Positions 27,285 through 39,238 of a stretch of DNA of 64,000 nucleotides are shown here, in pieces (positions within the stretch are counted from its first letter, which is position 1; each line of letters opens with the position of its first letter). Origin of the DNA: Albugo candida (Eukaryota); assembly GCA_040437565.1 (NCBI GenBank), contig JBDOQK010000048.1, positions 1 through 64,000 on the forward strand. The letters run 5' to 3'. The notes below the pieces were generated by a model. The model searched no databases. It was not told the DNA's origin and worked only from the letters and a program-made list of their open reading frames with translations. A program made the position numbers and the translations under genes.

Positions 27285-30200
27285 TCAAGTTTGATAATTC
27301 TTACTATTTCGCCAAGTTCGCTGTATTGCTGATGCTGCACGAGCTGATTCGAGCTGAAAACTATGCTTCTTTTCCAAATATCGACGTGTGAATCGTTGTA
27401 CCTTTTTTATGGCATTGATTTGCAGCCTTCGAGAGTTAAGCAACTTTCTTGACAGCCTTATTCGTACTTGAGATTGCAACTTTGTAACTAGGTGAATGAA
27501 ACTTGGATCCTTAGCTTCTTTTAGTGTCTGCATGACCTCTAGGTACTGAATGATGCTGAGAAATACAATCTCGAGGTTGTAAATAGCATAGAATGGGTTA
27601 TCAAGCACGTCCTCATTTTCGATGAAATTTACTGTTGCAGAAGCCTCGAAGTCCATTGGGGTCAAGAATGCATCAGCATTTTGATGAAATAGAATTCTCG
27701 CGCAAGACCTCTTGTATGCAAACTCGGGTGCCTTGAGATCGAGGGCACGTAACTGATTCAAAGAAGAAGTATTCAGAACCTCCAGAACCACCTGCGTTCC
27801 TTTCAACTCCACAATTTCCTTGAAATCTTCGCTATTGAATTTCGATCGAGAGAGTATCAATGCAATTCGAAGTAAAACAACAACTACCTTCTCCAGTACT
27901 TCGTTGCCATTATTCAGAGACCCTTTACATTTGACATCACCATGAGGCTTCATTACTCTTACGAATGGCAGACGTTTTGCTTGTTCGAACTTCATCATGT
28001 AACTTTTCAGATCAACCTCGATTGCTTCCAGTTGTTCATCCAGCGTCTTCAAACACTCTTCCCATAGTGTATAAAGATAATAGCCACCGAGTTCAACAAA
28101 GGCGAAGTCTGAAGGTGATTCTTTCAAAAGGCATCTTCCACCACCTATCGAGCATTGATTAACGCTTTTGGTATATAGACTCGCATGCTGGGTTGTCCGT
28201 TCCAAGATCGACTCCATTGATTGCGCCATTTTGGCAGATTCGATTTCGACACCGCTGAATATGATATATTCAATCGTGACATCTCGTTTTGTAAGCTCGC
28301 TCTGATGGATGATATGGTCAGATGCATTATAGCCCCGTACGCATGGATATAACTTCAATTTGAGATGTTTTCTTCTCACATTGGCGACATCTGTGAACAG
28401 AGCCCGATTTGACGCCCGTTTTGCCGATGGAAGAACTTTATTGCTACTACCTTTTCTACTTTTCGGTACAGGAACAGCATATCCTTTGGGTTTCTCTGTT
28501 TTATTATCTTTGGATTTCTCTGTTTTATGATGAAGGATGTGGAGTGGATACTGCAAGATCATTTTCAGTTGGGCATACCTATCTGTACTTGATTGCTTTT
28601 TATCGACATGATCGACCCATAAGTCTATCTCATCAACGGGTAGAACATTTTCGGTGAGTCTCTTGGATGCGAATATGTTGTACTTTTTATTTGATGCATA
28701 GAGCTGTTTCAATCTTTTACGAAACTTTGAGTTTGAGATCATTTTTTCGTTACTCATGTTGCTGTAGGGAACTCGAATATTCACAGCATCGCTACCCGTT
28801 TCCAAGTCAATGCAAACAATATTTCCGGAAATTCTCGATATGTCGACTTGATTCTGGCCGTGCTTATACTTGTGATCGGATGACATCCACCTCAGTAGAT
28901 TTATCTCCTGTTCCAAGCGGCAGTAGAGTTCCAGCGAATATGTTTTCAGAACCCACGATGGGTACAGCCGTGCATAAACATAACAAGCAACGGCCCCAAA
29001 TGCCTCGAAATAGGTTCTGTGACGCCAGTTGTGATACTGATCGCTTGTTTGATACACGCAGAGCGCTATCCTAGGCTCAATGGAGACTGTAGAATCCAGC
29101 ATTAATGCCATACATACAAGTGTAAAGTTTCCACGTTTTTCGATACCGTGAACCGGTCGACCATTTTCGGATCTACTGTGATCTAACGTTCGTGGTAAAT
29201 TAGTCATCGGTAGACATAGTTGATTCTCGAAATGAATATTCTGACCGTCTTTAAGATATTCGCTGTCACATCCCTCAAGATAACAAAAGTGCTGGATGAG
29301 TCCTTCCGTTAACCTTGGAATTGGAAAGTGCTGCCAGCAAACTACTCGGTAATTAGACACAAAGTCTTCACCCAGAATCATGATCTGTTGAGATTGCACG
29401 CCCGTCAAATCTCGATTCAAAATACGCATGAGTAGCCCAAAATATTCGCGAAGAGATATCTTCTGCGGCTGATGCGTACATGCCAAAATTTCCTCATAAC
29501 TGCAACGAAGTCGATTAACGCTAATGATTCGGTCCAGTTCGTCAGCGCAGAATTTGAGAAACACTCGAACGCACTTTTCTATACACTTATATGCTTCTTC
29601 ATGTACATTTAATCTTGATGGGGTAACCTCAGAGTTCAGGTGTAGCCTTTCTATGCACATTACTCGAGTACGTCCCACGGGAACGGCAAGCAATGTATCC
29701 GGACTATCAGCGATAAAATCAACGCGTGTCGAGGTCTCTCCCATTAAATTCCCGATACAATCACTCGAAAGTTCTGAAAGGAGCAACTTTCCACTGGTAA
29801 CACAGTTCAATATAATCTCCCCCAGCCGTACTTTTAAGTCAGCTTTCATATCCGGGTCGTATTGATTGGCATGTCTCGAATCCAGTTTCAGCGATTGATG
29901 CTTCATGGTTAATCGCTTGCTTGAAGTTGCAACGATTTGCGCCGTATTTTTTTTCAGATCGCATTCTGCCAAAAAAAGGTGTGCAGGTTCTTCAACACAG
30001 TTCAAAGACAGAGATATAGCTTCAAGTATGTTGTCGATGTGAGATGTATAAAACTGTTTGAGCGCTGGAGAAGCGGCTATACTTTCCATTTCGACCTCTA
30101 TTCGCTGCAATAAGGCTCTTACTTTTTGTTGTTCTGTAGCTCTCCGAATTGTATTGTTACATTGCTTTATGAGTAAGTTGGTCCGTCGATAGATTTGGCT

Positions 30201-33200
30201 TATAAAACCCGACTCATCGAGCCAAAAAGAATTCTCTAGTTCGCCCTTTGCATCGGAGCTGGTGCGCTTTTGACGCTTGTCTTGAGCACGTTTAAGAATG
30301 ATCATCGTGGCACATGGATAAAGCTGAGCATTTTTAACCAAATAAGTTCGATGGACGAACAGAATGTTTATGTCCTCTCCTTCGCAAGGGAACGCTATAA
30401 GTGGAACGTGCTCCGGGCTTTTTCTCTGACTTTGAGTTTTTGCTGCACCGATTCGCTTAGCATTAAAATATCGACGTGTTTCTTGGATTATTGCACTATC
30501 ATTAGTCAACATGGAATCGTTCGTGCATACTCCAGCATTCTTGTTTGCCATATAGGCGAGTTCTTCAACACCTGAAGATGTGCTTGTAGCTGCAGTATCA
30601 GAAAGGGTTTCCATTGGCACTCTAACAGCTCTAATTGCTATCAGTGATAATAAATTCTGAGACAAAGTCGAAACAATATGTCGAAACAGCTCATGGCATG
30701 TTTTCATTTTAGCGTTTTTTAAAGTATCCATTGTAACCATCGCTTCTTGCGTGTAAGCATTGCGCAATGTATGAGAAATCAAGTTTGCGATCGCCTCAAG
30801 ACTTTCGGTAACTTCGCGCTCGGGGCAGCAATCATCATTCCCAAACCAATTCCCCGCAGCACCAGCAAATTTATCTACAACCAAGACACCAAACGAAGGT
30901 ATAGACGTGCAAAACAAAACACTCTCATTCTCTTGTGATTGTAGCAGAGAATTGGAACCGATTTCACTTCGTTGTATTCTCTGCCGTGATGTGGGATCAG
31001 CGGTAAGCGAATCAGTGCTTGTTTTCGTGCTCAGAAACGCTTCAAAATAAATGCTGTCCCATGTACTTACAAATTTATTCAACATATTGCTTGATTGTGT
31101 TGAGCTGGTAAAATGAAGCTTCTCGCATAGAGGTTGTACCATACCGATATAAGCATTGATACCACAAATTGCTTCCTCCAGACTTTCGATTGCACACTGT
31201 AAAAATGATAAGAGTGAGGACGAAGTTTGATGTGACCGAGAGGATATATACGTTGGCGCCGACGAAACCTGATTATATATACAATCAGTTGGTACCTTAA
31301 GCACAGCTTCGCTCGACGTCCGGATTTGAGCAAGCGATTTGCGCAAGGAGTCTTTGCGCCAGGATAACGTCACCACACGTATAGAATGGATCGCTTCTTT
31401 CAATATGTTCGCCATACTGATGAGAGTGTCAATGATCCCCGGTTCTGGAGACATCTTATCGGCCGACAATATGGCATGATCCGTGACATTATCTACAGAA
31501 AGGGTGCCATATCTGCCAATCGGGACGATTACATATGGCCACATGTTCGTATCATCCGCGTCAAAAATATGCACTCTACCTCCAAACTTTCTGAACATCA
31601 AAAGATCGGAAGCAATATCCTCTCTTTTAACAATGAGGACGTTGCTGCTTGATAAGGCATAGAAGCTTATACCGTTCTCGTGGTTGAGGTATCTCCCTCT
31701 CATAGAGCTTGTTTTGGATGCACATGAATAATAAAGGCGTTGTTGCCGCGGTTGATACATCCCAATGTACGCATTGGCACCAGGCATGGTGTCTCCAAGC
31801 AAAGAGATTAGTTTTTCTTGTGCTTCTAGAAGAATCTCGCATTTTAGTTCTTCGATTGGTTCGAATCTTGGTGGTGCGTTTGTGCAGATTCTAGCGAGTA
31901 GACTCTTGCAAAATTCAGAAAATTCTTGGACACATTGGACGCGAATACGAGATCTATTTTCACGAACTCGGAAAGTGTAATAACTATTCGATAATATCTT
32001 TCCAATATGATCAAGGAACACTTGCTCTTTGATTCCCATGTGAGTAGCGGTACAAGTGAGGTAAAGCTTCAGTGGCTTTTCTTTGCCCTGTTCTTTTTCA
32101 TTTTTGTGTTCCATCAATCTATTTGTTGCGAACAAAGGTAGTCCCATGTCGGATATAAATGTGCCCAGATAGCGTCTAGTACCAAAAAAAGCTTTTAAAG
32201 CTAGACTTGCTTTATCGTCTTCATCTTTGTACTCCGCTATGAATGGTAAATGGACAGAACGGTAGATAGCAACGGGAGGTGGTGCAAAATAAATGCTTGC
32301 TGTCTCAGGGAACCCTACTCTGATACTTGTTGTTTTAATCGTCGAGCAACTGCTTCCAAATTCATGGAGGCAAACATCCTTTATCGGATAGGTGGCAAAC
32401 GAAAATTGCCTAGCTGCGACTCTGTACTTTGGTACCAGCTCTATGGGTAAATCAAAATTAGTAGCGATACTCCCATCTGACAGATCGTCGGCCCAAAAAC
32501 TCATAGGCTCGACTTTGTGAAAATATGAGTATTCGGGTTCTTGTGAGTTCGATATCAATAAACGCTCCACATTGGAAAACTCATACATCAACGAGGCAAT
32601 ATTGGTGTTAGGAGCGATTGAAAGAAGCTGAACCTTTGGCATCCCAGGAAAATTGTCCCGAATAGCTTCCATGCAATAGTAAAAAATTTGATGCGGGGTG
32701 GCTATCTCTCTAAATAATTTTGATCGGATTTGTTGCAAAATTGTTACACTTCTCGCTGAGTAAAGAGATAACGAAATGATTTCAGCAGCATTTTCAAAAT
32801 ACTCGAAAATTGTTTTGATTGGTTTTGCCAAAAAGCTACTGATTCCGTTCACAATCATGACGCCAACTGCTCTAGCTTGATGATACAATGGAACAACCAT
32901 ACAAGGGCACGAATTGCAGATAAAAGCTTCTTTTTTCATTGTGCTTTTTTCATTTCGACAATCCATTTTGGCAAGCTCATGAATTGTTCTGTCGGGAGTT
33001 TCGATCAGAGTGATCTTGCTTGTCAAAATTAGCTTAAATAAAGCAGGAAGCTCAGAGGCAATATAACTACTTTTCGAATTCGATGCTTCAAGGCAAATCG
33101 AATCAAAAAGCACTTGTACCCTTTCATCTTTTAAAGCAAATACTTGCAGTGAATGACACAAAGATGCGTTTTGTATATCTTGCGATACTGATTTTATTAT

Positions 33201-35177
33201 ATCCAGCGAGATTTGATTGTGTACTTCGAAAGCACTGTGATCCAGACTCTGACGAAGGAACTTAATTCTATCATAGGAGAGCTTCAATTTGCGATGGCAG
33301 CATTCGTAATCGCAAGCCCGTCTCAAGTTTGAAATTGTCGCCGCTTGAAGGCGGTTGAGGAATCGCTCATCGTCAGGTCCAACATGGTACGAACGGTTTA
33401 AGTCGATTTGCGTGTAAAATATCCAATCTGTACTCGCAATGTCTAGAATCAAAACCATAGAATTGCTGTCCTCCATATTGATCACTATGTTACTTTCTGC
33501 TTTCTCCATTATTTCATACCCGTTCAAAGACGTTCTTACTTTTCTTGTGAATTTTTTCAACTCGAGATCGCCTGGGTGCATCGGACGTAAAGATAAGGAA
33601 TGAAGTATACGTTCCCACGATAATATTTCAATCGTTCCGTCCTTCCACTTCACCGTATATAGTGCTTTCCAGCCTGAGTGTAGGTTTTCTTGCGTGTCAC
33701 TGAGGATTTTGGTACGGCAAAGGTCACTGTATCCGGGACTTGTGCATCTCTCCAAGCTGATCACGTGCCCTTGTATCAGTGGTTGCAAATCAATCCGTGC
33801 TTCATCTTGTCTAACATGTATCTCGTCCACGGGAATCTGAGAAAATTTATATAATGTCACACGTTTCATCTCATGCACGTCGCAATGGACAAACGGTAAT
33901 AAACGATCACTCTGGATTCGCAAAGTTGACAAGAGATGTATTTTTGCATCCTCGCTTTTGCAAATACGCCAGATCGAGATATTATCTACTGCCAGAAGCG
34001 CTTTGTAAATGGCCCATAACGTTTTGTGATAAACTTTGTAAATCATGAAATGTCCACATCCAAGGCCACGTGTTCTCATCGTATTGGCGTCGGCGGCATT
34101 TTGACAATTTGATAGAATGAGAAGCCAATGATAACGTCGATAGCGCTTCAAACACGATCCTAACAATGCAGCAACCTCTTGTAGATATTCGAGAACCGCC
34201 TCGCTCTGAAATAACGATGTATACTTTTTCGTGAACTGTATAGTCTGACGAGAGCTGGGAACCAAATTCGCTATTGATAAACCCTTTCTAATAGATGTCA
34301 AAATAAAATGAAGCTTTCTTCTATCTTCAATACTAATTCCCTGAAACTCTAAAAGATGTCTCAATTGAGATCGTGACATTTCAAAGAGTTTTTCTCCCGA
34401 GATTTCGAGTTTACGCAATTCCTTTGCAACCATACCCAAGCCCATGTATTCGCTCAAAAAAGCGTGCAGCTCAGGCGGTGACATTTTTTGCGGGAGGGAC
34501 CTCCTTGCTGCACGACATGTATCCAGACAGATCACACCGCTCACTACGCTTTCTACGTTGCTAGGCATGTCAAGCAAAGGGAAGCAAGCGAATGCTCCTG
34601 TACTATTTTCATTGTCGAATCGATGCAGAGGAATCAGTGAGTTGGCAATGTCGTGTATTATGACAACTTTTCGACCCAAAATGGCCTGGAATGCTGCTGT
34701 TGTCCTATTCTTTTTCTTGTTGTCATTATTTTCGTAAGTCAAAAGTAAGGTCCGATAAAGCATTTTGCTTTCCGACGACGCAGCGACGTACATCACCCGA
34801 GGTGTGGATGTTTCTGTGAGTGCTTCATATTCTCCTATGTATATATCTGTGCTAGGTAGACAACTCTGAATCTCGTTTACAACTTTTGCGTAAATTTGGA
34901 AAAGCGTCGGTATCTGTCTACTTTCATCTTGTACTGCCGGTTGACAGCATGCAAATTGAGTTGTTACCTCCTCTTCGATGTCTTGGAAGTATTTTCGTAA
35001 GGACTTCAAGCTACATTTAAAGGCATTATCCTTCTCTATTTCATATTCCAGCTTTTCAGAATAAAGCTTCGATGTGAGTGTTGCTCTCGTTGTGCGTTTC
35101 TCTGCTTGCTTTGCTGTCCTGTCGGGTGACTGGTGCAATGGATGATCGGCAATCTGTGTGCTTCTTCCTCTCTTCAT
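27285..35177 (-). CDS. Large protein (~2600 aa) with SAM-like domain, repeated GAF-like modules and C-terminal IQ motifs
   Basis: 7.9-kb open frame. SAM-like ELHAFLSEYMGLG...ISGEKLFEM...GISIEDRRKL. Repeated AYIGxxQP...LxY/FxxA/SxxxSxM units. IQ-like KLQSQVRIRLSR, KVQRFTRRYL and AIQRTWR. May hide small in-frame introns (e.g. ~31197-31268). Confidence 0.8.
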   Translation of the reverse strand: MKRGRSTQIADHPLHQSPDRTAKQAEKRTTRATLTSKLYSEKLEYEIEKDNAFKCSLKSLRKYFQDIEEEVTTQFACCQPAVQDESRQIPTLFQIYAKVVNEIQSCLPSTDIYIGEYEALTETSTPRVMYVAASSESKMLYRTLLLTYENNDNKKKNRTTAAFQAILGRKVVIIHDIANSLIPLHRFDNENSTGAFACFPLLDMPSNVESVVSGVICLDTCRAARRSLPQKMSPPELHAFLSEYMGLGMVAKELRKLEISGEKLFEMSRSQLRHLLEFQGISIEDRRKLHFILTSIRKGLSIANLVPSSRQTIQFTKKYTSLFQSEAVLEYLQEVAALLGSCLKRYRRYHWLLILSNCQNAADANTMRTRGLGCGHFMIYKVYHKTLWAIYKALLAVDNISIWRICKSEDAKIHLLSTLRIQSDRLLPFVHCDVHEMKRVTLYKFSQIPVDEIHVRQDEARIDLQPLIQGHVISLERCTSPGYSDLCRTKILSDTQENLHSGWKALYTVKWKDGTIEILSWERILHSLSLRPMHPGDLELKKFTRKVRTSLNGYEIMEKAESNIVINMEDSNSMVLILDIASTDWIFYTQIDLNRSYHVGPDDERFLNRLQAATISNLRRACDYECCHRKLKLSYDRIKFLRQSLDHSAFEVHNQISLDIIKSVSQDIQNASLCHSLQVFALKDERVQVLFDSICLEASNSKSSYIASELPALFKLILTSKITLIETPDRTIHELAKMDCRNEKSTMKKEAFICNSCPCMVVPLYHQARAVGVMIVNGISSFLAKPIKTIFEYFENAAEIISLSLYSARSVTILQQIRSKLFREIATPHQIFYYCMEAIRDNFPGMPKVQLLSIAPNTNIASLMYEFSNVERLLISNSQEPEYSYFHKVEPMSFWADDLSDGSIATNFDLPIELVPKYRVAARQFSFATYPIKDVCLHEFGSSCSTIKTTSIRVGFPETASIYFAPPPVAIYRSVHLPFIAEYKDEDDKASLALKAFFGTRRYLGTFISDMGLPLFATNRLMEHKNEKEQGKEKPLKLYLTCTATHMGIKEQVFLDHIGKILSNSYYTFRVRENRSRIRVQCVQEFSEFCKSLLARICTNAPPRFEPIEELKCEILLEAQEKLISLLGDTMPGANAYIGMYQPRQQRLYYSCASKTSSMRGRYLNHENGISFYALSSSNVLIVKREDIASDLLMFRKFGGRVHIFDADDTNMWPYVIVPIGRYGTLSVDNVTDHAILSADKMSPEPGIIDTLISMANILKEAIHSIRVVTLSWRKDSLRKSLAQIRTSSEAVLKVPTDCIYNQVSSAPTYISSRSHQTSSSLLSFLQCAIESLEEAICGINAYIGMVQPLCEKLHFTSSTQSSNMLNKFVSTWDSIYFEAFLSTKTSTDSLTADPTSRQRIQRSEIGSNSLLQSQENESVLFCTSIPSFGVLVVDKFAGAAGNWFGNDDCCPEREVTESLEAIANLISHTLRNAYTQEAMVTMDTLKNAKMKTCHELFRHIVSTLSQNLLSLIAIRAVRVPMETLSDTAATSTSSGVEELAYMANKNAGVCTNDSMLTNDSAIIQETRRYFNAKRIGAAKTQSQRKSPEHVPLIAFPCEGEDINILFVHRTYLVKNAQLYPCATMIILKRAQDKRQKRTSSDAKGELENSFWLDESGFISQIYRRTNLLIKQCNNTIRRATEQQKVRALLQRIEVEMESIAASPALKQFYTSHIDNILEAISLSLNCVEEPAHLFLAECDLKKNTAQIVATSSKRLTMKHQSLKLDSRHANQYDPDMKADLKVRLGEIILNCVTSGKLLLSELSSDCIGNLMGETSTRVDFIADSPDTLLAVPVGRTRVMCIERLHLNSEVTPSRLNVHEEAYKCIEKCVRVFLKFCADELDRIISVNRLRCSYEEILACTHQPQKISLREYFGLLMRILNRDLTGVQSQQIMILGEDFVSNYRVVCWQHFPIPRLTEGLIQHFCYLEGCDSEYLKDGQNIHFENQLCLPMTNLPRTLDHSRSENGRPVHGIEKRGNFTLVCMALMLDSTVSIEPRIALCVYQTSDQYHNWRHRTYFEAFGAVACYVYARLYPSWVLKTYSLELYCRLEQEINLLRWMSSDHKYKHGQNQVDISRISGNIVCIDLETGSDAVNIRVPYSNMSNEKMISNSKFRKRLKQLYASNKKYNIFASKRLTENVLPVDEIDLWVDHVDKKQSSTDRYAQLKMILQYPLHILHHKTEKSKDNKTEKPKGYAVPVPKSRKGSSNKVLPSAKRASNRALFTDVANVRRKHLKLKLYPCVRGYNASDHIIHQSELTKRDVTIEYIIFSGVEIESAKMAQSMESILERTTQHASLYTKSVNQCSIGGGRCLLKESPSDFAFVELGGYYLYTLWEECLKTLDEQLEAIEVDLKSYMMKFEQAKRLPFVRVMKPHGDVKCKGSLNNGNEVLEKVVVVLLRIALILSRSKFNSEDFKEIVELKGTQVVLEVLNTSSLNQLRALDLKAPEFAYKRSCARILFHQNADAFLTPMDFEASATVNFIENEDVLDNPFYAIYNLEIVFLSIIQYLEVMQTLKEAKDPSFIHLVTKLQSQVRIRLSRKLLNSRRLQINAIKKVQRFTRRYLEKKHSFQLESARAASAIQRTWRNSKNYQT

Positions 35178-35501
35178 TGATTTGAACAGCTTGGATTTAC
35201 TCGATTATGCCCTGTGTATATGCAAATTTTGCATGTTGATGGAAAATGCTCTTGCACGGCAAAAAAAACNNNNNNNNNNNNNNNNNNNNNNNNNNNNNNN
35301 NNNNNNNNNNNNNNNNNNNNNNNNNNNNNNNNNNNNNNNNNNNNNNNNNNNNNNNNNNNNNNNNNNNNNTCTTGCACGGCAAAAAAAACAGTGGTGCAAC
35401 TCTTCAGGGTCTTAATTTTCACGCACTTTTGGGAAAATCAACTGGTCGAATCGATTATCTATAATTTCGTAGAGGCTACTACTTATCACAGTGCTGTAGA
35501 C

Positions 35502-37767
35502 ATGATCAGACAGTTTAGCCGCAGATCACCTACTCGTCTTGTTTTTGATATCAAGGCAATTCCTCTGCACTATTCCTTGGTCTATGGATCTTCAATACTT
35601 CATCACAGGAGGCATATCGAGACATCGTATGGAACAATCGCTAAAGTTGGTGCAAAAACGACCACAACGAGTGTTACAAAGACACATCATGCAATCATTG
35701 GTCTTCTACTTGCAGCTGGAATTAGTTTACAATATGGAGATAGAAAGAAAAATGGTGAAGAATACGAAGTGAGCTTGTTTGGTAAAATCGCTGAATGTTG
35801 TGGCATCATGGGCGTTGTTGGGAAATCTGGAAACGCGTCCAACTTTCTACTGGAAGGGGTGACGATATTACAGAATCGTGGTTATGATTCCGCAGGTATG
35901 TCCACTCAGAAAAGCATTCCGGATGAAAATGGACAGGCGCCCATTACTACAACCAAATTTGCCTCTGTTGATGGCACTGCTGATTCCATTCAATTATTGA
36001 AAAACTCCAAAGAACAGCATGACGGAAATAATGTGGGCATCGCGCACACGCGATGGGCAACCCATGGAAGTAAAACTGATCATAATGCGCATCCTCACAT
36101 GGACATGCATGGTCGTGTCTCTGTGATACATAATGGAACCTTTACAAACTACAATGAGATTAAACAAGAACTTACCAGTGAAGGCGTCATATTTGCATCG
36201 GATACTGACACTGAAGTTGCGGCACAATTAATCGGGCATTTGATGGGGGATGGTGCTGATGTATTAACTGCTACTCGTCTTGCATTATCAAGGTTAGAAG
36301 GAACGTGGGGTTTATGCATCATGGCTCGTGATGAACCGGGGAAGATTATAGTTGCTCGTAATGGATCCCCGCTGTGTATTGGATATGGCTCTAACGAAAT
36401 GTATGTTGCATCAGAAACAACAGCTTTCTCCCGATACACCAAACGTTTTATTTCATTAAAAGATGGTGAGCTTGCTGTATTAAAGTCCGACTCCGCGGAG
36501 CTAGATCCTGTGGACGAAAAAGAAGGCTTTCTTCAGCGCTTTCCCACCAGTCGATATGCAACGGCACCAGATGTCAAAGTTCGATTGGCACCAACACCGT
36601 ATCCGCATTGGACGATCCGAGAAATCATGGAGCAACCTAAAGCTGTCGCAGCGGCTCTTGGGTATGGTGGCCGTGTGAGTGTGGATCATGTCTTCTTGGG
36701 GGGGTTAGAAGCAGAGAAAGAACGAATGCTCAAGATCAAAAATCTGCTTATTGCGGCTTGTGGAACTTCGCTGTATGCGAGCAAGTATGTTTGTCCGATA
36801 TTTATGCTGATTTATAAAATGCTGACGAGTGATACAATGTAGATACGGTGCCAAGTTGATGCGATCGTTAAATGCTTTTGATAATGTCAGCGCAGAAGAT
36901 GCATCTGAATGCACACCTGATCGATTACCCAGAAAAAAAGCAGGCGTCCTAGTTGTCTCACAATCGGGTGAAACACTGGACGCTGTCCGTGTATTGAAAA
37001 TGGTAGAAGACTTGCCAGTCGAATTCCCGACATTTTCAGTTGTGAATGCAGTCGGATCTCTGATAGCTAGAACAACAAAATGTGGCGTATATCTTAATGC
37101 TGGTCGCGAGAATGCTGTGGCAAGCACAAAAGCATTTGTGACTCAAGTGACAGTGATGGGATTGATTGCGTGCTGGTTTGCACAGAATCGGCCTGAAGGA
37201 AACCACACAAAAATGGATGAATTGATACAGTCAATGCACCGACTTCCAATCGCAATCGGTATTGCGCTTCGAACTCGTCAACAATGTGAGCAGGTTGCCG
37301 AGAAACTAATGTCCTCGGAGCATCTATTTGTGCTGGGGCGCGGTTATGGTGAGCCAATTGCGTATGAAGGAGCGCTCAAAATCAAAGAGTTATCGTACTT
37401 GCATGCAGAAGGATATCCAGGAGGTGCCTTGAAACACGGTCCTTTTGCTCTGATTGAAGACGCAAAAGATGGGAAAAATGGTGCGACTCCGATCATTTTG
37501 ATCGTCTTGGATGATGAGCACGCACAATACATGAAAACGGCGGCACAAGAAGTTCGTGCGCGAGGAGCCCATACCATTGTGATTACTGATAATGCCAAGA
37601 TGTGTGAAGGAATCGCTGACACAATCATTTCCATTCCCACAAACGGTCCAATGACTGCTCTTTTAGCTTCCGTTCCATTACAACTAATTGCGTACACATT
37701 GGCAGTAAAGAAAGGCATCAATCCCGATGTTCCAAGAAATCTTGCGAAAGCTGTAACGGTGGATTGA
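35502..37767 (+). CDS. GFA1: Glutamine--fructose-6-phosphate aminotransferase (GFAT/GlmS) with a 99-aa N-terminal extension; 2 exons, 735 aa
   Basis: CGIMG, NRGYDSAG, AHTRWATHG, HNG, SDTDTE, ACGTS, SQSGET, VASTKAF, EGALKIKE, LKHGP and C-terminal PRNLAKAVTVD. Intron 36785-36842 joins in frame (SK|YG). Confidence 0.97.
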
Positions 37768-38159
37768 TTTAGAAGACAAGGCACATATCGTGATGTTTTT
37801 ACTAAAATTCGACTGTTTACATTTTGTACTTATTTCTGTCGCCTGTTCGAATTACACGACACTCTGTACCGTACCGCGTAGTAATAGTGCCCAGGTGCAT
37901 CTCTATTGCACTTGGACCGTAATAACCACTCCAAACGAACCTTGATAGCATGGATGAGATTACGTGCGTAACACAACCATAAACAGCAGATGATTTATGC
38001 AGTTCGACTCACTGAAATGTAGCTCAAGGCATTACATCCCATTCGTTTCACGCAGTATAATTTTGACAAGTACAAGACAGATTCGGAGCAAAGCTAGCTC
38101 CTCATTTTTAGAATAGGATTGGCGAAGCTGTTAGCCAGCTCGATTAAGTATCAGCGGAA

Positions 38160-39238
38160 ATGGTGCACCCAAATCAAAATCAATTTTCAGGATGGGTGTA
38201 CAAACAAGGAGCTATAGTTAAGACGTGGAAGCGGCGATTCATGGTCTTAAACGGAACCGAACTGAAATATTACAATTCTTCTTCATCAATGAAGACAGAA
38301 GAAAAGGGAAGTGTACAAATCCTTTCAGTCGAAATGAGCGGCTCCATCCAAAATGGACTTATCGTTTACGGCAAAGGAGGTCGCGTGCTAAAAATGTACA
38401 CTGAATCTTTCGTGCTCAACAAAGAGTGGTTTAAAGTGATAACACGGGTGATCTGTACATTGGAGAGTCACTCCGTCATTACTGAACCACAAAACAACCA
38501 GAGAGTGGAAATCAATAATGCGTTTGATTCGATGATACGGGTCAGTTTCGATTCGACAAGAACTTCGACTGAACCGGAGATCCGCTATTCAGGTTGGTTG
38601 TTCAAGCAAGGTGGTCGCGTGAAAAACTGGAAGCGAAGGTACTTTTTGTTGCGAGGGGATGTTCTATNNNNNNNNNNNNNNNNNNNNNNNNNNNNNNNNN
38701 NNNNNNNNNNNNNNNNNNNNNNNNNNNNNNNNNNNNNNNNNNNNNNNNNNNNNNNNNNNNNNNNNNNATACGGGTCAGTTTCGATTCGACAAGAACTTCG
38801 ACTGAACCGGAGATCCGCTATTCAGGTTGGTTGGTCAAGCAAGGTGGTCGCGTGAAAAACTGGAAGCGAAGGTACTTTTTGTTGCGAGGGGATGTTCTAT
38901 CGTATTTCGATACAGAAAGTACCGGTGCAGTGGCAAAAGGATTCGGTCACGTTATTCATTCTCAAATACTCTCAAGTAAAACGAATTGCTTAGAAATCCA
39001 ATTCAGAAACGGCAGAACACTTCACGTCATTGCGGCGTCACAGAAATTGGTTCAAGAATGGCTGCATATACTTTGTGATGTAGCAACGGCGCACAGCAGA
39101 GATGATTCTAAACTTGCGAATGTTCAGCATTTTGGCGATAGCCAGCATCAGCCGGATAAAAGTGAGACCCTTGCTTATTACGCGACAAGAGTGTTGCCTT
39201 GTCAAATCGAATCAGACAGAGTTGGATACTGGATTTGA
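38160..39238 (+). CDS. Tandem (two) PH-domain protein; apparent break is a gap artefact
   Basis: SGWVYKQGAIVKTWKRRF and SGWLxKQGGRVKNWKRRYF. 38534-38667 is repeated at 38768-38901 across the N gap, and collapsing it gives one ORF. Confidence 0.88.

What the first reader, a model, noticed from the sequence alone, without database searches (positions are those of the whole stretch)
35502..35815. GFAT with its catalytic Cys at residue 100, behind a mitochondrial-like bipartite leader
Known: GFAT/GlmS is an Ntn amidotransferase needing a free N-terminal Cys, and is canonically cytosolic with Met-Cys. Seen: no Met directly before CGIMG, and the nearest in-frame ATG is 99 codons upstream. The leader starts Arg/Ser-rich (MIRQFSRRSPTR), has a hydrophobic stretch (AIIGLLLAAGISL) and ends KIAEC|CGI. 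Inference: matrix signal + stop-transfer helix + AxC-type cleavage, so organellar import and precise processing (peptidase, or autocatalytic as for the PurF propeptide) would switch the enzyme on. That would put the first hexosamine step in or on the mitochondrion. Similar extensions may already be known in other SAR lineages.
Basis: partly seen in the sequence, partly recalled or inferred. Interest (0 to 1): 0.72.

Follow-up and report, generated by a model that had tools for sequence, protein, structure and literature searches.

The report
Oomycete GFAT behind a mitochondrial-type leader
This white-rust oomycete makes its first hexosamine-pathway enzyme with a 99-residue mitochondrial-type address tag that must be cut off exactly in front of the catalytic cysteine; the same design is shared by oomycete and diatom relatives, whose enzymes have already been predicted in print to be mitochondrial.

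Summary
The gene at 35502..37767 (+) has two exons and a 58-nt intron, and encodes a 735-aa GlmS-type GFAT. Its catalytic Cys is residue 100. Spliced RNA contigs carry the leader joined to the enzyme, with no other splice and no indel. ATG 35502 is the only ATG between the assembly gap and the Cys that is in frame.

The leader is not special to this genome. None of 113 usable relatives starts Met-Cys. They share:
- an acid-free basic N-terminus;
- an uncharged core of about 19 residues, with a basic residue before it and an acidic one after it;
- about 7 residues later, a small -3/-1 site (A-x-C) directly before the Cys.

I read this as a two-part mitochondrial presequence of the intermembrane-space sorting type, cut by a signal-peptidase-like enzyme (IMP). 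Import would then both place and switch on the enzyme. Localisation and cleavage are inferred, not shown.

Predicted mitochondrial targeting of GFAT is already in print for Cyclotella (2016), Thalassiosira rotula and Phytophthora infestans (2026 preprints). In the passages I read, the link to the catalytic Cys and the intermembrane-space reading do not appear. Interest is moderate.

The parts
35270..35369 (.). 100-N assembly gap flanked by the same 20-nt string on both sides. It lies in the divergent intergenic region upstream of the gene.
35483..35501 (+). Minimal 5' untranslated region. The spliced RNA contigs begin at 35483 (X19) and 35493 (X18). Contig ends do not prove a transcription start.
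   Evidence: table 8
35502..35798 (+). Leader, codons 1-99. AlphaFold2 gives it no structure (pLDDT 38-51). It is 48% identical to A. laibachii, against 97% for the mature part.
35502..35537 (+). N-terminal basic segment MIRQFSRRSPTR (residues 1-12): 4 Arg, no acidic residue, 75% identical to A. laibachii. Read as the matrix-targeting part.
35682..35738 (+). Uncharged core, residues 61-79 (THHAIIGLLLAAGISLQYG), with K60 before it and D80 after it. Read as the sorting / stop-transfer part. 76% identical to A. laibachii over residues 58-78.
35790..35798 (+). A-E-C, positions -3 to -1 of the inferred cleavage site.
35799..35801 (+). TGT, catalytic N-terminal-nucleophile Cys (residue 100 of the precursor, residue 1 of the mature enzyme).
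   Evidence: C100 invariant in 47 sequences
35799..36784 (+). Mature part of exon 1: the class-II glutamine amidotransferase domain and the start of the isomerase half.
36785..36842 (+). 58-nt GT..AG intron. It is skipped in the RNA contigs X18 and X19 and kept in the DNA contigs X11 and X14.
   Evidence: table 5
36843..37767 (+). Exon 2: the SIS (sugar isomerase) domains, ending ...AKAVTVD, with the stop codon at 37765-37767.
37768..37811 (+). 3' untranslated region as far as the RNA contigs reach (37785 in X19, 37811 in X18).

Best explanation
[quoted passage not shown] Residues 1-99 form a two-part mitochondrial presequence. First comes an Arg/Ser-rich, acid-free N-terminus that takes the chain through the mitochondrial import channels. 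Then comes a 19-residue uncharged core (K60 before it, D80 after it) that arrests the chain in the inner membrane, so the enzyme part ends up in the intermembrane space. A signal-peptidase-type enzyme, most likely the inner membrane peptidase (IMP), then cuts after A-E-C, directly before Cys100. Class-II amidotransferases need the free amino group of this Cys. Cutting would therefore both release the 636-aa enzyme and switch on its glutaminase half, which makes import a zymogen-activation step. In the intermembrane space the enzyme could exchange fructose-6-phosphate, glutamine and glucosamine-6-phosphate with the cytosol through outer-membrane porins, and no inner-membrane sugar-phosphate carrier would be needed.

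Shown here: the gene structure, the transcribed leader, the identity of the catalytic Cys, and the conserved design of the leader. Inferred: import, the sub-compartment, and the protease.
For: Gene and enzyme:
- Pfam GATase_6/7 plus SIS.
- 85% identity to A. laibachii GFAT over all of exon 1.
- The orthologue aligns end to end with E. coli GlmS, its Cys106 on GlmS residue 1.
- The AlphaFold2 fold starts at strand 101-107 with pLDDT above 90, while residues 1-99 have pLDDT 38-51.

Transcript:
- Two spliced RNA contigs hold leader and enzyme in one piece. The only joint is the 58-nt intron, and no laid run shows an indel.
- No other usable ATG exists.

Conserved design (113 of 120 hits usable):
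- 0 start Met-Cys. Leader length is 26-161 residues, median 80.
- Position -1: C 87, N 13, A 8, S 3, T 2. Position -3: A 81, S 20, T 6, V 4, P 1, L 1.
- Arg at -2 occurs in only 1 of 113, so the usual matrix-peptidase R-2 site is absent at this junction.
- The first 30 residues hold no acidic residue in 96 of 110 leaders and a median of 4 basic residues. The mature part has 3.9 acidic residues per 30.

Core (111 leaders):
- The uncharged run has a median of 19 residues.
- A basic residue lies within 5 residues before it in 99 of 111, and the first charged residue after it is D or E in 99 of 111.
- The run ends a median of 7 residues before the Cys.

Mosaic conservation against A. laibachii: N-terminus 75%, middle 31%, core 76%, linker 18%, pre-cleavage 70%.

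Tree of mature parts: the leader label needs 5 changes against a shuffled mean of 27.6 (0 of 500 shuffles as low). The window-like row sits in a 17-row all-leader clade with support 98.

Literature:
- Imp1 substrates have Asn at -1 and a hydrophobic -3, with a fixed distance from the membrane segment (PMC8835746, passages).
- IMP subunits exist in the stramenopile Ectocarpus (PMC3097184, passages).
- Orthologues are predicted mitochondrial by DeepLoc 2.1 in P. infestans, by HECTAR in T. rotula and by 'several programs' in C. cryptica.
- The later pathway steps are predicted cytosolic in diatoms, which favours a compartment open to the cytosol.
Against: - There is no experimental localisation, N-terminal sequence or processing datum for this or any related GFAT in what I could search.
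- I could run no targeting predictor on the Albugo protein itself.
- In Albugo the core of strongly hydrophobic residues is short: 13 residues without D, E, K, R, H, N, Q or P.
- In Albugo the gap from the hydrophobic window to the Cys is 21-24 residues, against a family median of 9.
- The yeast Imp1 motif has D or E at +1. Here +1 is always Cys, and -1 is Asn in only 13 of 113.
- AlphaFold2 did not even draw a helix for the core.
- Traller et al. also noted weaker ER signal-peptide predictions for the diatom enzymes.
- Amidotransferases of the same peptidase family (MEROPS C44) are listed among Ntn-hydrolase precursors cleaved in cis, that is, self-cleaving (PMC3207474).
- The relatives share ancestry, so the counts of 113 are not independent events.
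- The two RNA contigs come from one study, and contig ends do not prove a transcription start.
Confidence: 0.55

Rival explanations
1. The leader is a mitochondrial targeting sequence, but the Cys is freed by self-cleavage of the folded precursor, as in Ntn-hydrolase propeptides, and not by a membrane peptidase. The final compartment could then be the matrix, the intermembrane space, or a membrane-tethered state that releases itself.
For: Rawlings et al. 2011 (PMC3207474, passages) list glutamine PRPP amidotransferase (MEROPS family C44) among Ntn-hydrolase precursors cleaved in cis. From recall, not from a call: GFAT belongs to the same class-II amidotransferase group, and the 11-residue PurF propeptide of B. 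subtilis is the classic case. The nucleophile Cys is invariant.
Against: Self-cleavage does not explain a conserved small -3/-1 pattern placed a median of 7 residues after an uncharged core. That pattern is the signature of a signal-peptidase site. A precursor that cut itself in the cytosol would lose its address tag before import, and the conserved leader would then serve no purpose.
Confidence: 0.2
2. The uncharged core with its A-x-C site acts as an ER-type signal peptide that has an unusually long N-region. The enzyme would then enter the secretory pathway and be cut by signal peptidase.
For: The -3/-1 pattern and the 7-13-residue spacing also fit ER signal peptidase. [quoted passage not shown] One of six T. 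rotula GFATs is predicted ER.
Against: The hydrophobic window starts at residue 64 here, and at a median of residue 56.5 in 110 leaders. That is far from the N-terminus, where ER signals sit (recalled rule). The leading segment is acid-free and Arg-rich like a mitochondrial presequence. Asn at -1 (13 of 113) is poor for ER signal peptidase by the recalled rule, but it is typical of Imp1. The substrates fructose-6-phosphate and glutamine are not known in the ER lumen (established knowledge). Three predictors place the orthologues in mitochondria.
Confidence: 0.1
3. The leader is an artefact of the gene model or the assembly. The true protein would start Met-Cys, through an unseen splice, an alternative start, or a one-base error at the out-of-frame ATG 35795-35797.
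For: Deleting one T after ATG 35795-35797 would give M-C-G-I-M-G. A 100-N gap lies 132 nt upstream.
Against: All 4 laid runs (2 RNA-like, 2 DNA-like) cover the place with no indel and no joint other than the known intron. No residue at -1 is Met in 113 relatives. Independent transcriptome-derived relatives (MMETSP, EukProt) carry the same design.
Confidence: 0.03

Closest known systems
E. coli GlmS (glucosamine-6-phosphate synthase; PDB 2j6h, 4amv, 1jxa)
   Same: There is an end-to-end alignment of the mature part: the A. laibachii orthologue, residues 106-741, against GlmS 1-608 (326 bits, one stretch). The N-terminal nucleophile Cys, the amidotransferase domain, the two SIS domains and a ...K(A/S)VTV(D/E) C-terminus are shared.
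   Different: GlmS is made as Met-Cys and needs only Met removal. This protein carries 99 extra residues before the Cys. It is eukaryotic and has an intron.
Human GFAT1 (PDB 6r4e and others)
   Same: Same reaction and same domain order (285 bits).
   Different: The match is weaker and split into two stretches. GFAT1 starts Met-Cys and is cytosolic (established knowledge).
Stramenopile GFATs predicted to be mitochondrial: P. infestans PITG_02122 (Mendoza & Judelson, bioRxiv 10.64898/2026.07.27.741032), Cyclotella cryptica (Traller 2016, PMC5124317), Thalassiosira rotula (bioRxiv 10.64898/2026.07.09.737548)
   Same: They belong to the same protein family. The P. infestans and diatom relatives in my set carry the same leader design.
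   Different: Those papers rest on predictors only. In the passages and sections I read they do not mention the catalytic Cys, the two-part design, the -3/-1 site or the intermembrane space. Two of them call the location puzzling because fructose-6-phosphate would need a carrier. Their supplements (Table S3 of the Phytophthora preprint; Traller's additional files) were not seen and may hold more.
Two-part presequences of intermembrane-space proteins cut by IMP (yeast cytochrome b2, cytochrome c1, Mcr1, Gut2)
   Same: A basic N-terminal part is followed by an uncharged core, and a peptidase site lies a fixed short distance after the core. Asn or a small residue is at -1 (for the motif; for this family).
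   Different: +1 is Cys here, not D or E. -3 is mostly Ala rather than Ile or Val. The cargo is an Ntn amidotransferase whose activity depends on the exact cut.
Propeptide of glutamine PRPP amidotransferase (MEROPS C44)
   Same: It is a class-II amidotransferase whose Cys nucleophile is exposed by removal of an N-terminal peptide.
   Different: That propeptide is short and carries no targeting features (recalled). It is removed in cis.

Membership tests
GFAT / GlmS (class-II glutamine amidotransferase + 2 SIS) | Class-II (Ntn) amidotransferase domain | tested here: met
   Pfam GATase_6 at 7.5e-20 and GATase_7 at 6.6e-15, both above their cut-offs.
GFAT / GlmS (class-II glutamine amidotransferase + 2 SIS) | SIS isomerase domains in the C-terminal half | tested here: met
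   Pfam SIS at 1.1e-28, two stretches, in exon 2.
GFAT / GlmS (class-II glutamine amidotransferase + 2 SIS) | Nucleophile Cys aligned to Cys1 of the mature enzyme | tested here: met
   Query residue 100 aligns to residue 2 of M-C proteins. The orthologue's Cys106 aligns to GlmS residue 1. C100-G101-I102 are invariant in 47 sequences.
GFAT / GlmS (class-II glutamine amidotransferase + 2 SIS) | Cys directly after the initiator Met (the canonical way to free its amino group) | tested here: not met
   Ninety-nine residues precede the Cys. None of 113 relatives has Met-Cys. This concerns maturation, not the fold or the reaction.
Two-part mitochondrial presequence (intermembrane-space sorting, IMP-cut) | Basic, acid-poor N-terminal segment | tested here: met
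   In the window's first 30 residues there are 5 basic and 1 acidic residue. In the family, 96 of 110 have no acidic residue and the median is 4 basic.
Two-part mitochondrial presequence (intermembrane-space sorting, IMP-cut) | Uncharged core of about 17-20 residues with a basic residue on its N-side | tested here: met
   In the window, residues 61-79 (19 aa) follow K60. In the family the median is 19, and a basic residue lies within 5 residues before the core in 99 of 111. The expected length of about 19 is recalled.
Two-part mitochondrial presequence (intermembrane-space sorting, IMP-cut) | IMP-type cleavage motif; for yeast Imp1 it is [I/V][H/D/F/M]N|[D/E] | tested here: inconclusive
   -1 is small or Asn in 113 of 113, and -3 is A/S/T/V in 111 of 113. 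But +1 is Cys, never D or E, and the motif comes from a few yeast substrates.
Two-part mitochondrial presequence (intermembrane-space sorting, IMP-cut) | Actual import, arrest in the inner membrane and cutting by IMP | not testable with these tools
   This needs localisation, sub-fractionation and N-terminal sequencing.
Two-part mitochondrial presequence (intermembrane-space sorting, IMP-cut) | IMP subunits present in the same organism | not testable with these tools
   No whole genome is held for this window. IMP is reported for the stramenopile Ectocarpus.
ER signal peptide | Hydrophobic region within roughly the first 30 residues (recalled rule) | tested here: not met
   The best hydrophobic window starts at residue 64 here, and at a median of 56.5 in 110 leaders.
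Self-cleaving Ntn propeptide (MEROPS C44 type) | Removal in cis by the nucleophile itself | not testable with these tools
   There is only the family precedent. It needs recombinant precursor with and without the Cys.

The most novel reading that the evidence does not exclude
Stramenopile GFAT (oomycetes and diatoms, with relatives reaching at least one chlorarachniophyte) is an intermembrane-space enzyme made as an inactive zymogen. Its catalytic N-terminal Cys would be exposed only by the inner membrane peptidase during import. That would make it the first Ntn amidotransferase activated by a signal-peptidase-type cut, and it would place the committed step of hexosamine and chitin-precursor synthesis inside the mitochondrial envelope. 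Since no relative examined has a Met before the Cys, these gene products could not make an active cytosolic form by internal initiation.
Probability: 0.4. Interest if true: 0.7.

Novelty: new member of a known kind. Interest (0 to 1): 0.45.

Why it matters
Three papers have met 'mitochondrial' GFAT predictions in diatoms and Phytophthora. Two of them called the location puzzling, because fructose-6-phosphate is not made in mitochondria.

Reading the leader together with the enzyme's chemistry gives a concrete and testable answer. The design points to the intermembrane space, where no carrier is needed. The cut site sits exactly where the enzyme needs its free amino terminus, so import would double as activation.

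If this is true, it adds a case to the unusual compartmentation of stramenopile carbon and nitrogen metabolism. It would also mean that hexosamine supply in plant-pathogenic oomycetes and chitin-making diatoms depends on mitochondrial import and one peptidase.

If the leader turns out to be removed by self-cleavage, that would be the first such case for a GFAT.

Tried and rejected
- Assembly error at the out-of-frame ATG 35795-35797 (one T fewer would give Met-Cys): rejected. No indel appears in 4 of 4 laid runs that cover the place.
- A hidden splice that brings an ATG to the Cys: rejected. The only joint in the RNA contigs is 36784>36843.
- A start further upstream: there is no ATG in 35370..35501. 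An in-frame ATG at 35220 lies beyond the N-gap, 43 nt from the divergent gene's start codon. No GFAT RNA contig reaches it. In X19 a separate contig of much lower depth ends at 35422. Lack of cover is not proof.
- The look-up of sequencing runs: no RNA holder was listed as such. X18 and X19 were marked 'RNA?'. I treat them as RNA only because their contigs skip the GT..AG intron that the DNA-like runs keep.
- Second GFAT gene, IMP genes or other hexosamine-pathway genes in the same genome: could not be searched, because no whole genome is held.
The spread beyond the named oomycetes, diatoms, Phaeothamnion, Rhizochromulina and Amorphochlora is therefore unknown.
- Earlier notes of this scan: nothing found by place, words or sequence.
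- Literature on GFAT in the intermembrane space or in a stramenopile mitochondrial proteome: one search listed 15 of 20 papers, none relevant by title or abstract start. One search gave 0 papers. One search gave 7, none relevant beyond the T. rotula preprint.
- Matrix-peptidase cut directly at the Cys: unlikely, because Arg at -2 occurs in only 1 of 113.
- AlphaFold2 was run to see whether the leader packs on the enzyme. It does not: pLDDT is 38-51. No fold search was made, because the fold is not in question.
- Pfam on the 2630-aa neighbour gave nothing.
Full report
WHAT IS THERE

The window holds a two-exon gene on the + strand. Exon 1 is 35502..36784, a 58-nt GT..AG intron is 36785..36842, and exon 2 is 36843..37767. 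The coding sequence is 2208 nt, which gives 735 residues and ends ...VTVD. Pfam finds the class-II glutamine amidotransferase domains (GATase_6 at 7.5e-20, GATase_7 at 6.6e-15) in exon 1 and SIS (1.1e-28, two stretches) in exon 2.

The best database hit is the GFAT of Albugo laibachii Nc14: 85% identity over 100% of the exon-1 query, 741 aa. The window therefore comes from an Albugo-like white-rust oomycete that is not that strain. The full-length A. laibachii orthologue aligns over residues 106-741 with the whole of E. coli GlmS (residues 1-608; 326 bits, one stretch). That is better than its match to human GFAT1 (285 bits, two stretches). The enzyme is thus of the compact GlmS type. Its mature part here is 636 aa.

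ATG 35502 is followed by 99 codons and then by TGT at 35799-35801, G, I, M, G. That this second Cys of 'ECCGIMG' is the nucleophile follows from three results:
- Alignment: of the 150 best representatives at 50% clustering, 99 start Met-Cys. Their matches run from query residue 100 to their residue 2.
- In one search the orthologous Cys falls on residue 1 of the mature GlmS chains.
- C100, G101 and I102 are invariant in a 47-sequence alignment.

AlphaFold2, run with that alignment, starts the fold exactly there: strand 101-107 with block pLDDT 93-98. Residues 1-99 have pLDDT 38-51 and no secondary structure.

IS THE LEADER REALLY PART OF THE MESSAGE?

I laid four public runs on 35370..37900. 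Two of them (X18 and X19, one study) give contigs of 2261 and 2245 nt that skip exactly 36785..36842 (GT..AG). The two DNA-like runs (X11, X14) keep that stretch. X18 and X19 are therefore spliced RNA.

These RNA contigs begin at 35493 and 35483, which is 9 and 19 nt before the ATG. They run through the leader into the enzyme with no further joint. No run shows an inserted or missing letter.

That last point matters because of an out-of-frame ATG at 35795-35797. It would read Met-Cys-Gly-Ile if one T were spurious, and it is not spurious.

No ATG in any frame lies between the N-gap and 35502, and the leader holds no internal Met. The next in-frame ATG (35808) lies after the Cys and would give a protein without its nucleophile.

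Contig ends do not prove a transcription start, and both RNA runs are from one study. The start codon is nevertheless also supported by conservation: the first 12 residues are 75% identical to A. laibachii, against 31% for the next stretch. Other oomycete models likewise begin M-L-R or M-I-R.

The single polymorphism in the leader among the laid strains (35607 A>C in X11 and X14) is synonymous, Arg36. One site is too few to weigh.

THE LEADER IS A FAMILY TRAIT WITH A FIXED DESIGN

Of the 120 best hits, I could use 113. Two had no recognisable CG[IV] start in the first 200 residues, and five were fragments without an initial Met.
- None of the 113 starts Met-Cys.
- Leaders are 26-161 residues long (median 80), and 110 are 40 residues or more.
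- Named members include Globisporangium, Lagenidium, Pythium, Phytophthora, Peronospora, Plasmopara, Saprolegnia, Aphanomyces, the diatom genus Thalassiosira, Phaeothamnion, Rhizochromulina and the chlorarachniophyte Amorphochlora.

The leader sequences themselves are barely alignable between genera, yet the following hold:

(a) N-terminus. The first 30 residues have no acidic residue in 96 of 110 leaders and a median of 4 basic residues. The mature part has 3.9 acidic residues per 30.

(b) Core. An uncharged run has a median of 19 residues (mode 16-19). A basic residue lies within the 5 residues before it in 99 of 111 leaders, and D or E is the first charged residue after it in 99 of 111.

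(c) Spacing. The run ends a median of 7 residues before the Cys.

(d) Junction:
- -1 is C 87, N 13, A 8, S 3, T 2;
- -3 is A 81, S 20, T 6, V 4, P 1, L 1;
- -2 is charged in 107 of 113, and Arg in only 1.

In the window the parts are MIRQFSRRSPTR, K60 followed by THHAIIGLLLAAGISLQYG and then D80, and A-E-C|C. Against A. laibachii the identity is mosaic: 75% (N-terminus), 31%, 76% (core), 18%, 70% (last ten residues), and 97% for the mature part.

A FastTree of mature parts only was built from 115 rows. Fifty-one of 166 rows were left out because they were shorter than 560 aa or had no recognisable start. On this tree the leader label needs 5 changes, against a shuffled mean of 27.6 (0 of 500 shuffles as low). 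The window-like row sits in a 17-row all-leader clade with support 98. Relatives share ancestry, so these counts are not independent events. The point is that the design persists while the sequence drifts.

HOW IT MOST LIKELY WORKS

An acid-free basic N-terminus is followed far downstream by an uncharged 19-residue stretch, with positive charge before it and negative charge after it. A small -3/-1 site follows a few residues later. This is the layout of the two-part presequences that send proteins to the mitochondrial intermembrane space. The first part is a matrix-targeting signal. [quoted passage not shown]

The review quoted gives the yeast Imp1 motif as [I/V][H/D/F/M]N|[D/E], notes a hydrophobic -3, and notes a preserved distance from the membrane segment. 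The Saprolegnia and Aphanomyces forms (A-D-N|C, T-D-N|C, V-E-N|C) come close to it. The A-x-C|C of Albugo, Phytophthora and the diatoms is the ordinary signal-peptidase pattern.

From established enzymology (not from a call): the free amino group of the first Cys is part of the catalytic machinery of class-II amidotransferases. A precursor with 99 residues in front should therefore lack glutaminase activity. The cut has to fall exactly at C99|C100, and it would act as the switch.

Cutting during import, while the chain is still unfolded, also avoids the problem that the N-terminus is buried in the folded enzyme (inference).

An intermembrane-space location would answer the objection raised by Traller et al. 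and by the T. rotula preprint, that fructose-6-phosphate would need a carrier. The outer membrane is open to small metabolites (established knowledge), and the later pathway enzymes are predicted cytosolic in diatoms. All of this paragraph is inference from sequence.

RIVALS

Self-cleavage is the serious rival. Rawlings et al. list glutamine PRPP amidotransferase (MEROPS C44) among Ntn-hydrolase precursors cut in cis. It does not explain the -3/-1 pattern or its spacing from the core, and a precursor that cut itself before import would waste the leader. Even so, it could act after import, or as the real cutter in some lineages.

An ER-type signal is less likely. The hydrophobic window starts at residue 64 here (family median 56.5), and the front part looks mitochondrial. 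Traller et al. did, however, see weak ER predictions.

A gene-model or assembly artefact is excluded as far as reads can exclude it.

WEAK POINTS OF MY READING

- In Albugo the strictly hydrophobic stretch is only 13 residues, and the spacing to the Cys is 21-24 residues against a family median of 9.
- +1 is Cys, not the D or E of the yeast motif.
- AlphaFold2 drew no helix for the core.
- I could not run a targeting predictor.
- I could not search this genome for IMP or for a second GFAT.

WHAT IS KNOWN ALREADY

- Traller et al. [quoted passage not shown]
- The T. rotula preprint (10.64898/2026.07.09.737548; passages): three of six GFATs are predicted mitochondrial by HECTAR. It calls this unclear and notes that it 'might be more common' in diatoms.
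- PMC13339567 (passages) says nothing on location.

In what I read, none of these papers links the leader to the catalytic Cys or describes the two-part design, the -3/-1 site or the intermembrane space. My searches for such a link found nothing: 15 of 20 papers listed, judged by title and abstract start; 0 papers; 7 papers. The library lacks most subscription journals, so this is not proof of absence.

VERDICT

The feature is real, transcribed and conserved. The headline, a GFAT with a mitochondrial-type leader in stramenopiles, is already in print as a prediction. This Albugo gene is therefore a new member of a known kind. What this analysis adds is the mechanism suggested by the anatomy: intermembrane-space sorting and activation by an exact peptidase cut. 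That mechanism is testable with ordinary experiments.

Noticed in passing
window 35250..35389: The 100-N gap (35270..35369) is flanked on both sides by the same 20-nt string (tcttgcacggcaaaaaaaac). This suggests the two contig ends overlap and the gap is a scaffolding artefact of about zero length. If gap and duplicate were collapsed (120 nt, a multiple of 3), the GFAT frame would stay open back to an ATG at 35220. No GFAT RNA contig reaches that far.
   Followed up: partly
window 27285..35177 (-): A single uninterrupted 2630-aa ORF is transcribed divergently from GFAT, about 325 nt away on the scaffold (205 nt if the gap is collapsed). Pfam finds no family at E<=0.001. In X19 a separate RNA-run contig of 2833 nt, coming from that side, ends at 35422. 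This would leave only about 60 nt between the two transcripts' ends.
   Followed up: partly
window 38160..38855 (+): The downstream ORF has a PH domain (5.1e-14, two stretches) and is interrupted by another run of N (X in the translation).
   Followed up: partly
window 36694: T>A in the two DNA-like runs X11 and X14 changes Phe398 to Tyr. A. laibachii also has Tyr at this position (HVYLGG against HVFLGG). The other four differences seen (35607, 36951, 37476, 37569) are synonymous.
   Followed up: yes
proteins P0126, P0129, P0143, P0181: A few unnamed representatives carry short leaders of 29-35 residues with no hydrophobic core, and they also lack the small -3/-1 pattern. Others (P0248, P0264) have Met at -1 and are probably mis-called starts. 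Four Met-Cys rows (P0145, P0148, P0150, P0189) sit inside the mainly leader-bearing group in the tree and may be cytosolic paralogues or losses.
   Followed up: no
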